DNA of 32,000 bases from Candidatus Hermodarchaeota archaeon (GCA_048886185.1 JBHLKY010000016.1:60001-92000); one strand, 5' to 3'; shown: positions 5,994-10,355, numbered from the stretch's first letter. Translations and numbers: made by a program. The notes: a model not told the origin generated them from the sequence alone.

Positions 5994-8900
5994 ATGTCGA
6001 AACAAGGTCAAATGAAGTCCTTTAATCCTGGTTATCGGTCATGGTTTACACCCTTTCGGTACAATCAGAGGGGACAAATTCCTATTTTCATATTAGACTA
6101 TGAAACTCATAGTGAATGGGAGGATACATATGAAGAATACCCTCAATACGAAAATAGGGAATATGGAAAATCAACATTAATAAATGGAATCCAGATTTAT
6201 TTTTTAGATGAAGAGTATCAGAAACATAAGGCATTTTTAAGACATGCGCCTTATTACTATTTATTACTTGAGAAAAATTTGCCACTACAAGAGATAAACA
6301 GAATAATAAACCAAATTAGGGAAGTTGGAGAGAAACAGGTAGTTAAAGTGGAGAAAGGAGAGTATTTTGACGCAGCTGATCTTACTTTTTTGGTAAAGCA
6401 ATCATTTCTAAAAGTAACAGCTGATCGTCCAGGATCAGTGCCAAATTTAAGGGCAAAGACCGAAGAAATATCTGGTGTGGAGGAATGGCGAGAAGCCGAT
6501 GTGCTGTTTCACCATCGTTGTGCAATAGATCATAATGTTCGTGTTGGAACATGGTACTTAGCTGAAATTAACCAAGGGGAAATTAGAAGTCTTTCTCCAA
6601 TTCCTGATAAAACACCACCCCACTTACGTCTCTTAGCTTTTGATATAGAGACAGATTTTGAGCGTACACGTGATCCCAATCCCAATAAAGACGAAATATC
6701 GATGATTTCAATCTTTACTGGTAGTGAAAACAGATTAATCATTAATTCAAAAGTCGTTAATACAAAAGACATTAAGAGTTTCGATATACTCCTGCGTCAA
6801 ATGGATGATGATCATCCGAAACCATGGGTCGATTGGGAATACTCTGAAACACCAAAGGTTAGTTCAGATGTCATCGAGAGATACTCTATACAAGTAATTA
6901 TCGTAAAATCAGAAAAAGAGTTAATTCAATTATTCTATCAATACGTGGATGAATATCGGCCTGATGTGATTACAGATTTCTTTGGAGGGCGATTTGATAT
7001 TCCCTTTCTTGCTATTCGTTCAGAAAAGCACAATATTTCATTTGAAAGGGAGACTGGTTTTGAGATCAAATTTAAAATCCAAAGAAGAAATCTAAGTAGA
7101 AAAGACCTCAATAAATATTATTCTTCAGCCCACATTGATCACGTGGCAGGTGCGGGAATCATCCACCTAGACGCATATCTGTTTAATGAAAAGTACAGTT
7201 ACCTTCCTAAAAAAGATCTGGGACTCAAACCAAGTGTTAAAAAGAAACTGAAAATTATTCCAATTGGGAGAGAAGCGCTATTTAACATCAAAAATGATCC
7301 TGTCTCAGCAGCTGCGTATGCTGGTTGTGATGGCTACATCACCTGGAAATATGTACGGGAACTTGTGCTAGATTTTTTCATTTCAATGGGTCAAATATTT
7401 CCAGTACCAGCTTCAGAATTGCTTACAAGGCGCGCAGGATCATTGGATGACCTCTTAATTGATGCGGAAGATTACCAACATCAAATAATTGGAAAAAGAC
7501 GTATTGGAAAAACTGATTTTCATTCTTTCTCCCCAAACATTATAATCGAGTCTTTGGCTTATACAGGAGGATTGGTTGAGGCTAAAAGACCAGGAATATG
7601 GCGAAGTGATCTTTATTATGATTACTCAGTTAATAAAGAAGCATTACTAGAGCTTAAAGAAATCATTCAAAATATAATTGTAAAAGAAAGCAATTTATTG
7701 GCTAAGAAAGTAATTAAAGAAGAATTTGAACAACAACTACTAGCAAAACTTGGGGAAGTGAAAGTAGAGTACATTGAAGATCCAATACAATACTTGAAAC
7801 AAATAGAGACTGTACTCTTAAAAAATGGTATTCCACCTCAAGAGCGCTCAAAAAAACTTAATTCAATCAGAAACGTTTTAGAAAAGATATCTACTCTTCA
7901 ACCTGAAAACGTAGAGGAAGTTACAACAAAAGTTTTGACTCAGATTGATGAATTAACTTCTTTAAATGGAAAAACTCAGCTTAGAGGTGTTCATGTTGAT
8001 GTAACTTCTATGTATCCTTCCCAAATCCGTCAATATAAACTTCAACCTTCAAGTATCGTTTCACTAACTAGATGTCAAGTATGTCAACTATATGAAAAAG
8101 ATAATAGTTGTTTCTTTGAAGGCGATTGGGTAATTAAGTTTACTGCAAATCGTCCTTGCAGGTTTAAAGATACAGGGCCTTCTAAATGTTCCTCTACAGT
8201 TTGTTCAGCTAAAAATGAAGCCCAATGTAAGAGATATGACCCTACTCAAAATGGTATCACTCGTTCGCAAGAAATTTTTGCTTTCGATGGAAAAAAGACA
8301 GAGGCATTTATTCTTAAAAATGGATTAGGGATTGAAAAAGTTCCTGTAAATCAAACATATCTAGGCTCAAGTTTATCTGGAAAGGATCCCTTTGTTGCAC
8401 TTCAACAGTGGCTTCGTAACTCAATTGAAGCAACCCAGCTTACAACACGCCTAGGTGAGAACCACTTCGATATTTTTGAGGATACACCAGAAGTAAATCT
8501 CCCACGTAATTCCTTTCTTAGTTTGGATGTTAGAACAAAGAAAATGACCATTTTGTTGTCAGTTAATTCACGAGTCTGTCAAAAAGCCTATAATTTTGTA
8601 GCTCGGATAATGGATGATTTTTTTGCAACGAGAGTTCGTCATAAAATAGAAGCTAAGCGGTTATCACAGATAATTTCTCAAAGGAGAATTCAGAAAAAAG
8701 AGATTCCTGCTAAGTTACAACGCCAACAAAAATTCCACGACAGTACACAGATTGGGATGAAGGTTCCACTAAACAGTATTTATGGTTTACTTGGGATGAA
8801 AGGTGGTGTTAGAAATGCTAGTATGCCTTGTGCTGGAATCACTACAAAATTATCTGCTGATTTGATATTTTGGGCTGCAAACCAGCTGGAGCAAATAGGT

Positions 8901-10355
8901 TTAGTAGTAGAGTTAGATACTGACGGTATATGGCTTTGGGTTCCTAAATCATTTCCCTTGGACTTTTCTGTTACACTTAATAGTCCCTATAAAGAATCCA
9001 AAACATATAAAGTGAGTCTTATAGATAAGGTTCTTAATGAGAAAGTTGCTTCTTTTTCAAGGAACGACAACTATTGGATAAATGATGGAGAAAGAATTAG
9101 ACATACAAGTAAGAATCTTATTCAATTCGAACAAGATGGACCATACGACTTCCAGTTTGTAATGGGTAAAAAGAAATATATTGTATATAATTTTAATCAT
9201 AAAACCCAGACATGGATAGAGAAAGAATTAACAGGATTAGAATCTAAGCGCGCTGACTTCTCTAAACTACAAAAATATTTCCAAGAAAGGATTATCAATG
9301 CTTATTTAGCCCAATATAATCCTGATAATCCTATTACGCTTTCCCAGATTTACGAAAACGCAAAAAAAGAAGCTAATCAGATTCGTTCCGAACTAGTAGA
9401 CAGGAAAATGGATCCAAGCTATTTTGTAAAACCAAAAGCGATCAACAAGCCATTACGGGCATATAAATCCAATCTTCCACAAGTATCGGCCGCTTACATC
9501 TTAAAAGATCTCGGTTATTCTGTAGATCCAGGTACACGGATACAGATGTTAAATATAAAGGGAAATCATGTCATCCCTAAACAAGTTTTTGATTTTGATT
9601 TTAACACAATAAAAAAGGTTTTGATAAAACACGCGATCGCTACTCTTAGCTTTATGCTAGGGGAGCTCAGTACAAAAGAAGATTTACAAAAATTGATTGA
9701 TGTTAATCAATATATTGAAGATGTGTTTGGTCCTGGACGAATTTACGAACGGATGGTTGAGTTTCCCATGGAAGCTCAACAATTACCTAGTCAAGTACAA
9801 AGAGAGCTGGATCTAATCGATATTCCAACTTCTCAAGTAGAGGAAACACCTATCCATGACCAAAAACCTAGGTTAAAGAAAGAAAAGGTAAAGAAATCTG
9901 TGGCGAAGACAAAAAAACCAATTAAGGTTAAGAAATCTCCAAAAATAAAGAAGAGAAAACCAAAAGGTTTAACCAGTCTATTTCAACAAGAGACATCCAC
10001 AGATGCATTAGTATCATCAAAATCGTTGAATGAATACAAGGAAGTAAGAGAAAAGGAGATATCAAAATCTATAAGTGAGCTAATTGCTGAACCCACACCT
10101 AGTTCCTTAATGACAGGGATAGTCTCCAAACCTGAAGAATTAAGTGAAGAACATCCTCTTGTTTCATCAGAAGAGATCGAGGAATTAGAAACAAATGGAA
10201 TTTTCGTGCATGGGGAAGAAAGTAATGACCAATATGAATTAGATATACCAAACGAAGAACAAATGGTCTGTTCTGAATGTGGGGCATTAATAAATTCTCT
10301 AGAAATTATGAATGAGGGATGTACATTCTGTGGAAGTGGGCGACCCCTTAGATAA
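5994..10355 (+). CDS. polB: Family B DNA polymerase, DNA polymerase epsilon catalytic-subunit-like
   Basis: Exo I FDIET (D217/E219), Exo II GRFDIPFL, Exo III YAGCD, Pol A HVDVTSMYPS (D669), Pol B KVPLNSIYG, Pol C ELDTDGIW (D975/D977). Pol epsilon-specific segments: EADVLFHHRCAIDHNVRVGTWY, GGLVEAKRPGIWRSD, CysX, FEQDGPY, ELTGLESKR. C-terminal C4 zinc finger. Confidence 0.93.
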   Translation: MSKQGQMKSFNPGYRSWFTPFRYNQRGQIPIFILDYETHSEWEDTYEEYPQYENREYGKSTLINGIQIYFLDEEYQKHKAFLRHAPYYYLLLEKNLPLQEINRIINQIREVGEKQVVKVEKGEYFDAADLTFLVKQSFLKVTADRPGSVPNLRAKTEEISGVEEWREADVLFHHRCAIDHNVRVGTWYLAEINQGEIRSLSPIPDKTPPHLRLLAFDIETDFERTRDPNPNKDEISMISIFTGSENRLIINSKVVNTKDIKSFDILLRQMDDDHPKPWVDWEYSETPKVSSDVIERYSIQVIIVKSEKELIQLFYQYVDEYRPDVITDFFGGRFDIPFLAIRSEKHNISFERETGFEIKFKIQRRNLSRKDLNKYYSSAHIDHVAGAGIIHLDAYLFNEKYSYLPKKDLGLKPSVKKKLKIIPIGREALFNIKNDPVSAAAYAGCDGYITWKYVRELVLDFFISMGQIFPVPASELLTRRAGSLDDLLIDAEDYQHQIIGKRRIGKTDFHSFSPNIIIESLAYTGGLVEAKRPGIWRSDLYYDYSVNKEALLELKEIIQNIIVKESNLLAKKVIKEEFEQQLLAKLGEVKVEYIEDPIQYLKQIETVLLKNGIPPQERSKKLNSIRNVLEKISTLQPENVEEVTTKVLTQIDELTSLNGKTQLRGVHVDVTSMYPSQIRQYKLQPSSIVSLTRCQVCQLYEKDNSCFFEGDWVIKFTANRPCRFKDTGPSKCSSTVCSAKNEAQCKRYDPTQNGITRSQEIFAFDGKKTEAFILKNGLGIEKVPVNQTYLGSSLSGKDPFVALQQWLRNSIEATQLTTRLGENHFDIFEDTPEVNLPRNSFLSLDVRTKKMTILLSVNSRVCQKAYNFVARIMDDFFATRVRHKIEAKRLSQIISQRRIQKKEIPAKLQRQQKFHDSTQIGMKVPLNSIYGLLGMKGGVRNASMPCAGITTKLSADLIFWAANQLEQIGLVVELDTDGIWLWVPKSFPLDFSVTLNSPYKESKTYKVSLIDKVLNEKVASFSRNDNYWINDGERIRHTSKNLIQFEQDGPYDFQFVMGKKKYIVYNFNHKTQTWIEKELTGLESKRADFSKLQKYFQERIINAYLAQYNPDNPITLSQIYENAKKEANQIRSELVDRKMDPSYFVKPKAINKPLRAYKSNLPQVSAAYILKDLGYSVDPGTRIQMLNIKGNHVIPKQVFDFDFNTIKKVLIKHAIATLSFMLGELSTKEDLQKLIDVNQYIEDVFGPGRIYERMVEFPMEAQQLPSQVQRELDLIDIPTSQVEETPIHDQKPRLKKEKVKKSVAKTKKPIKVKKSPKIKKRKPKGLTSLFQQETSTDALVSSKSLNEYKEVREKEISKSISELIAEPTPSSLMTGIVSKPEELSEEHPLVSSEEIEELETNGIFVHGEESNDQYELDIPNEEQMVCSECGALINSLEIMNEGCTFCGSGRPLR

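What the first reader, a model, noticed from the sequence alone, without database searches (positions are those of the whole stretch)
8073..8579. Complete CysX Fe-S motif plus an extra four-cysteine insertion at the P-domain position
Seen: C694-x2-C697-x8-C706 ... C862 (SRVCQKAYNFV) lines up with the Pol epsilon CysX [4Fe-4S] ligands (recalled yeast C665/C668/C677/C763). The third-to-fourth spacing is 156 aa versus about 86 in yeast. The extra sequence carries four more cysteines: C722, C732, C737, C745 (RPCRFKDTGPSKCSSTVCSAKNEAQC). Inference: a second metal site (Zn or Fe-S) within the processivity-domain region, not present in the eukaryotic enzyme as I recall it.
Basis: partly seen in the sequence, partly recalled or inferred. 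Interest (0 to 1): 0.7.

Follow-up and report, generated by a model that had tools for sequence, protein, structure and literature searches.

The report
Second four-cysteine site in archaeal Pol-epsilon-like polymerase
The DNA polymerase of this Asgard (Hodarchaeales) archaeon, the closest archaeal relative of eukaryotic Pol epsilon, keeps the four cysteines that hold Pol epsilon's iron-sulfur cluster and has four more invariant cysteines nearby that eukaryotes lack, most likely a second metal site that has not yet been shown by experiment.

Summary
ORF 5994-10355 (+) encodes a 1453-aa Pol-epsilon-N-like family B polymerase, the published archaeal group B10 or Hodarchaeales 'PolB1'.

- **CysX:** C694, C697, C706 and C862 align by HMMER to yeast Pol2 CysX (C665/C668/C677/C763).
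- **Conservation:** C722, C732, C737 and C745 lie where stated. All eight cysteines are present in 66 of 66 database homologues (down to about 23% identity in this module) and in all 22 complete gene copies found in Asgard genomes.
- **Background:** in loop 716-760 only 1 of 41 non-Cys columns is invariant. Spacers between the extra cysteines vary (x7-15, x2-25, x7-9).
- **Distribution:** none of 132 other CysX-bearing representatives, nearly all eukaryotic Pol epsilon, has the four extra cysteines. The module occurs only in this archaeal order (22 of 23 other genomes there, 0 of 376 elsewhere in the phylum).
- **Interior:** the region between the two ribbon strands shows no detectable sequence or fold similarity to the eukaryotic P-domain, so this is a remodelled domain and not a simple insertion.

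My best reading is a lineage-specific Cys4 metal site, Zn slightly favoured over Fe-S, at the distal end of the P-domain. Metal binding and 3D proximity could not be tested because no model coordinates were available. I found no description of it in the papers searched. This scan had already noted the same motif in other Hodarchaeales genomes.

The parts
5994..10355 (+). Gene for a 1453-aa Pol-epsilon-N-like family B DNA polymerase (archaeal group B10 / Hodarchaeales PolB1). ExoI FDIET is at residues 216-220, motif A DVTSMYPS at 669-676, motif B at 923-931 and motif C ELDTDG at 973-978.
   Evidence: Best PDB sequence matches are Pol epsilon catalytic subunits (E 1e-56) against about 1e-15 for archaeal PolBs. 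The AF2 model of residues 500-1030 matches only Pol epsilon chains at E 1e-15 to 1e-9, and the next best hits have E of 0.01 or worse.
8073..8111 (+). CysX N-terminal triad C694-x2-C697-x8-C706, the putative [4Fe-4S] ligands 1-3.
   Evidence: Aligned by HMMER to yeast C665/C668/C677 and by hhalign to a eukaryotic profile. Invariant in 66/66 homologues.
8112..8150 (+). First long beta-strand of the P-domain ribbon (residues 707-719), with invariant W712 and K715. The x15 spacing between C706 and C722 is invariant.
   Evidence: DSSP on both AF2 models gives a strand at model residues 208-220 and 20-32. The spacing is shown. The homologous eukaryotic strand carries the conserved Trp.
8157..8228 (+). 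Extra Cys4 motif C722-x9-C732-x4-C737-x7-C745 inside an irregular, basic loop of about 39 residues (720-758). This is the proposed second metal site.
   Evidence: All four Cys are present in 66/66 homologues and in all 22 complete genomic copies, with variable spacers. The loop is coil with pLDDT 54-68. It is absent from 132 other CysX-bearing representatives. No Pfam or PDB sequence match was found.
8268..8540 (+). Alpha/beta subdomain of the archaeal P-domain-position module (residues 759-849). It is confidently modelled but has no recognisable fold relative.
   Evidence: pLDDT is 80-95. The best VIA Z is 4.0, the best Foldseek E is 0.39 and the best Atlas TM is 0.39. It is not aligned to the eukaryotic P-domain by HMMER or hhalign.
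8541..8579 (+). Second long beta-strand of the ribbon (residues 850-862), ending in C862, the fourth CysX ligand (RVCQK), followed directly by the fingers helix.
   Evidence: HMMER aligns it to yeast residues 753-763, ending in C763. C862, Q863 and K864 are invariant. DSSP gives a strand and then a long helix.
10269..10331 (+). C-terminal C4 finger C1426-x2-C-x13-C-x2-C1446. This is a separate, already published metal motif of group B10.
   Evidence: There are weak zinc-ribbon Pfam hits with E 0.004-0.03, all below the cut-offs. It is described for B10 in PMC7544198 and PMC12680538.

Best explanation
The eight cysteines form two separate sites in a remodelled processivity (P) domain. C694, C697, C706 and C862 are the CysX ligands. 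As in Pol epsilon, they hold a [4Fe-4S] cluster that staples the base of a two-stranded beta-ribbon (residues 707-719 and 850-862) next to the fingers. C722, C732, C737 and C745 sit just beyond the far end of that ribbon. They bind a second metal that knots an otherwise irregular, basic 39-residue loop into a fixed shape. I slightly favour a structural Zn2+ and consider an Fe-S cluster the main alternative. By analogy with human and yeast Pol epsilon, this distal end of the P-domain faces the newly made duplex DNA and the sliding clamp, so the site would stiffen the part of the enzyme that holds DNA for processive synthesis. Shown here: the positions, the alignment to CysX, the invariance, the restriction to one lineage and the absence from eukaryotes. 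Inferred: metal binding, the identity of the metal, the distal position and the role in DNA or clamp contact.
For: (1) CysX is aligned to yeast Pol2 by HMMER and by profile-profile comparison. (2) All eight Cys are present in 66/66 homologues, which fall to 23-28% identity in this module, and in all 22 complete gene copies found in 400 Asgard genomes. (3) The surrounding loop evolves freely. Only 1 of 41 non-Cys columns in 716-760 is invariant, and the mean top-residue frequency is 0.52. (4) The spacers vary (x7-15, x2-25, x7-9) while the cysteines stay, which is the pattern of ligands around a metal knot. The C706-C722 spacer is always x15. (5) Both AF2 models give a 13-residue strand, then about 39 residues of coil carrying the four Cys, then a well-folded alpha/beta subdomain, then a 13-residue return strand ending at C862. 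(6) 12 of the protein's 15 Cys lie in the three Cys4 motifs. (7) A few members have CxxC at the second and third extra Cys. The loop has 7 K/R against 3 D/E. (8) In human Pol epsilon the P-domain is elongated, with the cluster at the finger-proximal end and DNA and PCNA contacts at the other end (PMC11381554; PMC11638069).
Against: No coordinates were available, so the mutual proximity of the four Cys is untested. The loop is modelled with only moderate confidence (pLDDT 54-68), and AF2 often models real Zn sites with higher confidence. The motif matches no known zinc-finger or Fe-S family. Most members lack the CxxC knuckles typical of zinc fingers. Nothing here discriminates Zn from Fe-S. 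The distal position rests on secondary structure only, and the loop could fold back towards the base. Family B polymerases of hyperthermophiles use conserved Cys pairs after motif A as disulfides (own knowledge; alluded to in the supplement of PMC7544198).
Confidence: 0.68

Rival explanations
1. The four extra cysteines bind a second iron-sulfur cluster ([4Fe-4S] or [2Fe-2S]), which would make this a two-cluster polymerase core, possibly redox-responsive at the DNA-facing end. This is the Fe-S branch of the metal-site reading. I count it as a rival only to the Zn preference.
For: The same protein already carries the CysX Fe-S motif. The ligands are irregularly spaced single Cys and mostly lack CxxC, as in many Fe-S sites of DNA enzymes (own knowledge). 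The CysX loop of Pol epsilon is itself polar and surface-near (PMC6582351). The yeast cluster is redox-active (PMC8499023 abstract).
Against: The four ligands span only 24 residues of a polar loop predicted as coil, with little hydrophobic shielding. Some members have a CxxC knuckle. If the 13-residue strand is extended, the two sites would lie roughly 40 A apart, too far for direct electron transfer between them. That distance is an inference.
Confidence: 0.28
2. The four cysteines form one or two structural disulfide bonds and bind no metal.
For: Conserved Cys pairs after motif A form disulfides in PolBs of hyperthermophilic archaea (own knowledge). The supplement of PMC7544198 notes Cys in the same loop of archaeal B1 and B3 enzymes, suggested to aid thermostability.
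Against: The window has 31-37% G+C and the organism belongs to a lineage not known as hyperthermophilic (own knowledge). Cytoplasmic disulfides are uncommon outside hyperthermophiles. Four invariant Cys with freely varying spacers fit a single shared centre better than two fixed pairs.
Confidence: 0.07
3. The eight cysteines are not split 4+4 as in the alignment. Some of the extra cysteines replace or supplement CysX ligands, for example through a cluster with alternative or switchable ligands.
For: All eight are equally invariant, and no coordinates were available to assign the ligand sets.
Against: The four CysX positions align one-to-one with the crystallographic ligands of yeast Pol2. An invariant 15-residue segment, 13 residues of it predicted as beta-strand, separates C706 from C722.
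Confidence: 0.05

Closest known systems
Archaeal PolB group B10 (Kazlauskas et al. 2020, NAR, PMC7544198), called Hodarchaeales PolB1 / Pol-epsilon1-NTD-like PolB in PMC12680538
   Same: This gene is a member. It has the Pol-epsilon-N-like core, motif C with Glu (ELDTDG), a single C-terminal C4 finger, no inactive second PolB half, and it is confined to Hodarchaeales.
   Different: Nothing differs at the level of the gene. The main texts of the papers I could search do not mention that B10 keeps CysX, and they do not mention the second Cys4 motif. PMC7544198 and PMC6582351 describe CysX and the P-domain as confined to Pol epsilon orthologues.
[quoted passage not shown]
   Same: The four CysX cysteines are the same. 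The position is the same, between motif A and the fingers. The flanking beta-ribbon strands are homologous. The overall fold of residues 500-1030 matches only Pol epsilon.
   Different: The interior is 155 residues against about 85. It shows no detectable sequence or fold similarity to the eukaryotic P-domain. It carries four extra invariant Cys, which 0 of 132 other CysX-bearing representatives have. There is no C-terminal inactive PolB module.
CysA/CysB C4 metal motifs of the eukaryotic PolB C-terminal domains (Zn, or Fe-S in Pol delta/zeta CysB)
   Same: They are Cys4 metal motifs in a replicative family B polymerase, and whether they bind Zn or Fe-S was long debated (PMC7544198; PMC6582351).
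   Different: They sit in the C-terminal domain, are built from CxxC pairs and serve in subunit binding. The motif here is inside the catalytic core, mostly lacks CxxC, and has no sequence similarity to them.
Disulfide-forming Cys pairs after motif A in hyperthermophilic archaeal PolBs (B1/B3 groups)
   Same: They are conserved cysteines in the palm region just after motif A of a family B polymerase (supplement of PMC7544198; own knowledge).
   Different: Those are pairs in short loops of enzymes that have no P-domain. Here there are eight Cys, four of which align to proven Fe-S ligands, in an AT-rich (31-37% G+C) genome.

Membership tests
Archaeal PolB group B10 / Pol-epsilon-N-like clade | Closest sequence relatives of known structure are Pol epsilon catalytic subunits, not other family B polymerases | tested here: met
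   Pol epsilon chains score E 1e-56 to 1e-47, and archaeal PolBs score 1e-15 or weaker; the model of 500-1030 matches only Pol epsilon chains at E 1e-15 to 1e-9.
Archaeal PolB group B10 / Pol-epsilon-N-like clade | Conserved Glu in motif C (synapomorphy named in PMC7544198) | tested here: met
   ELDTDG is at residues 973-978. E474 of alignment A1 is invariant.
Archaeal PolB group B10 / Pol-epsilon-N-like clade | One C-terminal cysteine-rich metal motif and no second, inactive PolB module | tested here: met
   C1426-x2-C-x13-C-x2-C1446 lies at the C-terminus of a 1453-aa protein. Zinc-ribbon Pfam hits are weak.
Archaeal PolB group B10 / Pol-epsilon-N-like clade | Restricted to Heimdallarchaeia of the LC3/B3 (Hodarchaeales) lineage | tested here: met
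   apart from the window's own genome, the module was found in 22 of 23 genomes of the same order and in 0 of 376 other Asgard genomes. Source names are mostly Hodarchaeales or Heimdallarchaeota and include LC_3.
Pol epsilon CysX [4Fe-4S] site | Four cysteines C-x2-C-x8-C ... C flanking the P-domain and aligned to yeast C665/C668/C677/C763 | tested here: met
   Searches give the alignments. Searches show invariance in 66/66 homologues.
Pol epsilon CysX [4Fe-4S] site | An iron-sulfur cluster is actually bound | not testable with these tools
   This needs UV-vis, EPR, ICP-MS or a structure of the purified protein.
Eukaryotic-type P-domain | Interior of the insertion homologous or structurally similar to the Pol epsilon P-domain (two helices that contact DNA and PCNA) | tested here: inconclusive
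   hhalign aligns only the first 29 columns, covering the CysX triad and first strand. The HMMER match to Pol2 omits residues 714-851. The isolated module gave no clear PDB match, with best Z 4.0 and Foldseek E 0.39. A missing match does not prove that the fold differs.
Classical Cys4 zinc fingers (zinc ribbon, knuckle-based folds) | Two CxxC-type knuckles, or a match to a known zinc-finger family | tested here: not met
   Spacing is x7-15, x2-25 and x7-9. Only a few members have one CxxC. No Pfam hit was found even at E of 10 or less. The only PDB sequence hits are chance matches to WDR5 (E 0.27). This lowers the claim that it is a named zinc finger. It does not lower the claim that it binds a metal.
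Cys4 metal site (generic) | Four thiolates within bonding distance of one centre in 3D | not testable with these tools
   The structure tool returns only pLDDT and secondary structure, and no coordinate file appears in /data.

The most novel reading that the evidence does not exclude
The Hodarchaeal Pol-epsilon-like polymerase carries two iron-sulfur clusters in its catalytic core: the CysX cluster at the finger hinge and a second cluster at the DNA/clamp-facing end of the P-domain. The archaeal relative of the leading-strand polymerase would then be a two-cluster, potentially redox-sensing enzyme, and eukaryotic Pol epsilon either lost the second cluster or never gained it.
Probability: 0.25. 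Interest if true: 0.7.

Novelty: new variant of a known kind. Interest (0 to 1): 0.45.

Why it matters
The Fe-S cluster in the Pol epsilon catalytic core is essential, but its role is still debated: staple, finger hinge or redox switch. Published texts describe CysX and the P-domain as unique to Pol epsilon orthologues. This archaeal enzyme shows that the complete CysX ligand set also occurs outside eukaryotes, in the archaeal polymerases that published trees place as sister to Pol epsilon N. It offers a single-polypeptide prokaryotic model for that cluster. It also adds a second, strictly conserved Cys4 centre at the other end of a differently built processivity domain. If the second site binds metal, it is a new structural element of a replicative polymerase. 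It would also serve as a marker for tracing how the eukaryotic P-domain arose.

Tried and rejected
1. Cys-Cys distances. Both AF2 jobs return only pLDDT and DSSP, and no coordinate file reaches the script box.

2. Fold of the isolated module (residues 688-870). Foldseek against PDB gave a best E of 0.39. VIA-align against 48,161 chains gave a best Z of 4.0, to unrelated proteins. The ESM Atlas gave a best TM of 0.39. No relative was recognised. This does not show that the fold is new.

3. Sequence searches with the Cys loop and the module. The only PDB hits were chance matches to WDR5 (E 0.27). Pfam gave nothing.

4. Profile-profile comparison of the archaeal and eukaryotic P-domain regions. 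Only the first 29 columns align.

5. One complex-prediction job with the module and three copies of this genome's PCNA (L026). It tested the idea that the distal P-domain touches the clamp, as in human Pol epsilon. The result was 'no answer' (score 0.00), which is no evidence either way.

6. Polarity (gain in Hodarchaeales or loss in eukaryotes). I built no rooted tree because no outgroup sequences (bacterial G3) were among the 150 listed hits.

7. Chance clustering of Cys was considered and rejected on the conservation data.

Full report
**The gene.** The finding lies in ORF 5994-10355 (+), 1453 aa. Pfam finds the family B exonuclease and polymerase domains. Against PDB sequences the best matches are all Pol epsilon catalytic subunits (E 1e-56 to 1e-47). 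Ordinary archaeal PolBs reach only about 1e-15. ExoI (FDIET), motif A (DVTSMYPS), motif B and motif C (ELDTDG) are intact. Database homologues are named Hodarchaeales, Hodarchaeota or Heimdallarchaeota, including LC_3. This is the published archaeal PolB group B10 (PMC7544198), called Hodarchaeales PolB1 in PMC12680538. The genome also has three canonical PolB genes.

**The observation.** Cysteines are at 694, 697, 706, 722, 732, 737, 745 and 862, at exactly the stated nucleotides. HMMER aligns the segment holding C694/C697/C706 to the yeast Pol2 segment holding C665/C668/C677. It aligns the segment ending in C862 to the one ending in C763. The yeast residue numbers and their role as [4Fe-4S] ligands are confirmed in PMC6582351, and the human equivalents in PMC11638069. 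The protein has only 15 Cys, and 12 of them lie in three Cys4 motifs. In shuffles of the protein, 4 or more Cys in 24 aa occurs in 1.5% and 7 or more in 52 aa in 0.005%.

**Conservation.** A database search with residues 620-960 gave 68 homologues. Of these, 66 cover the region, with module identity to the query from 81% down to 23%. Every one has the pattern C-x2-C-x8-14-C-x15-C-x7-15-C-x2-25-C-x7-9-C-x91-123-C. C737 appears shifted by two columns in 18 sequences, but this is an alignment slip and the cysteine is present in all of them.

In loop 716-760 only one of 41 non-Cys columns is invariant, and the mean top-residue frequency is 0.52. Selection therefore acts on the cysteines themselves and not on the loop.

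An independent search of 400 Asgard genomes found the module in 20 of 21 other genomes of the same genus-level group. The one miss is a 1.4-Mb genome that is 71% complete. It was also found in 2 of 2 genomes of the second family of the order and in 0 of 376 genomes outside the order. All 22 complete genomic copies, the window's own included, show the eight-Cys pattern.

**Absence elsewhere.** An exhaustive profile search of 1.84 billion representatives found 14 B10 representatives at 243 to 822 bits. Scores then drop to 167 bits or less for eukaryotic Pol epsilon. Among 132 non-B10 hits in which I could locate CysX, 84 have no cysteine between the third and fourth ligand, 41 have one and 6 have two. 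None has four. The single B10 fragment in that set (P0070) does have four.

**Structure.** An AF2 model of residues 500-1030 (pLDDT 80.5) matches only Pol epsilon chains in the PDB (E 1e-15 to 1e-9). A model of residues 688-870 (pLDDT 79.5) agrees with it on the following order of elements:
- the CysX triad;
- a 13-residue strand (707-719);
- about 39 residues of coil carrying the four extra Cys, with pLDDT 54-68;
- a confidently modelled alpha/beta subdomain (759-849, pLDDT 80-95);
- a 13-residue return strand (850-862) ending at C862;
- the fingers helix.

The first and last strands are the parts that align to Pol epsilon. The interior does not align by HMMER or by profile-profile comparison, where only 29 columns align. 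The isolated module has no clear fold relative. The extra cysteines are therefore not an insertion into a eukaryote-like P-domain. They are part of a differently built interior between homologous ribbon strands.

The C706-C722 spacer is invariably 15 residues, 13 of them predicted as a long strand. I infer from this that the second site lies at the far end of the ribbon, roughly 40 A from the CysX site. This is an inference from secondary structure, not a measurement.

**Mechanism.** In human Pol epsilon the P-domain is elongated. The [4Fe-4S] end acts as a rigid hinge for the fingers. The opposite end contacts duplex DNA and a PCNA protomer (PMC11381554; PMC11638069). I propose that the archaeal Cys4 loop binds a metal at that opposite end and fixes an irregular basic loop (7 K/R against 3 D/E).
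- Shown: the positions, invariance, lineage restriction and absence from eukaryotes.
- Inferred: metal binding, the identity of the metal, the location, and the DNA or clamp role.

Zn is slightly favoured because the span is compact, the loop is polar, and some members have CxxC. Fe-S is the main alternative because the ligands are irregularly spaced single Cys and the same enzyme already has one such site. Disulfides have a precedent in hyperthermophilic PolBs (own knowledge) but fit this AT-rich genome poorly. One search shows the low G+C. That the lineage is not hyperthermophilic is my own knowledge.

**Novelty.** The polymerase family is known. In the papers I could search, the main texts on B10/PolB1 mention neither CysX conservation nor a second Cys4 motif. 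PMC7544198 and PMC6582351 state that CysX and the P-domain are confined to Pol epsilon orthologues. Subscription papers are not covered by the library. This scan had already noted the same motif in other Hodarchaeales genomes, and one follow-up recorded 'a second four-cysteine site'. It is not new to the scan.

**Limits.** No experiment bears on metal content. The direction of change (gain or loss) is unresolved.

Noticed in passing
Orthologues P0005, P0006, P0028, P0046 (also P0038, P0069); equivalent to window about 8910-8927: Several orthologues are 1280-1919 aa because an intein of about 440 aa (Pfam LAGLIDADG and Hint families) interrupts the polymerase at about query residue 976, inside motif C (ELDTDG). 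The window's gene has no intein.
   Followed up: partly
L001:8001-12107 (JGI contig of 91 kb): P0163 is a 1368-aa Pol-epsilon-like polymerase with CysX, a short P-domain region (72 aa, no extra Cys) and a POL2_thumb Pfam hit. It sits among a PCNA gene, a DNA methyltransferase, a TnpB/Cas12f-like gene and many ORFs with no family, which looks like a virus or mobile element. Four similar unnamed representatives exist (P0075, P0164, P0178, P0191). CysX therefore also occurs outside canonical eukaryotic Pol2 and B10.
   Followed up: partly
Orthologues P0052, P0054, P0057 (residues about 750-780 of each): One B10 subclade has two or three additional cysteines (C-x7-C, and in P0052 C-x-C-x7-C) 15-17 residues after the Cys4 loop, for 10-11 Cys in the module.
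   Followed up: no
Eukaryotic Pol epsilon representatives (P0072-P0207): 41 of 132 representatives carry one cysteine in the P-domain, in most of those displayed in a motif like EYCRKVY, where yeast has Ser. It is a single, variably present residue and not a metal motif.
   Followed up: no
G000 contigs C8:31930-33012, C2:116762-118045, C5:146797-147987: Besides the Pol-epsilon-like enzyme, the genome encodes three canonical family B polymerases (open frames of 848, 868 and 805 aa).
   Followed up: no
L026:1453-2352 (G000 contig C9): The only PCNA_N match in the genome lies in a 299-aa ORF that ends in a tail of about 30 residues made almost entirely of Glu, Asp and Trp.
   Followed up: no
window 8139-8141 (residue 716): The database cluster representative for this protein (P0002) differs from the window's translation at one residue, F716L, in the first ribbon strand.
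   Followed up: no
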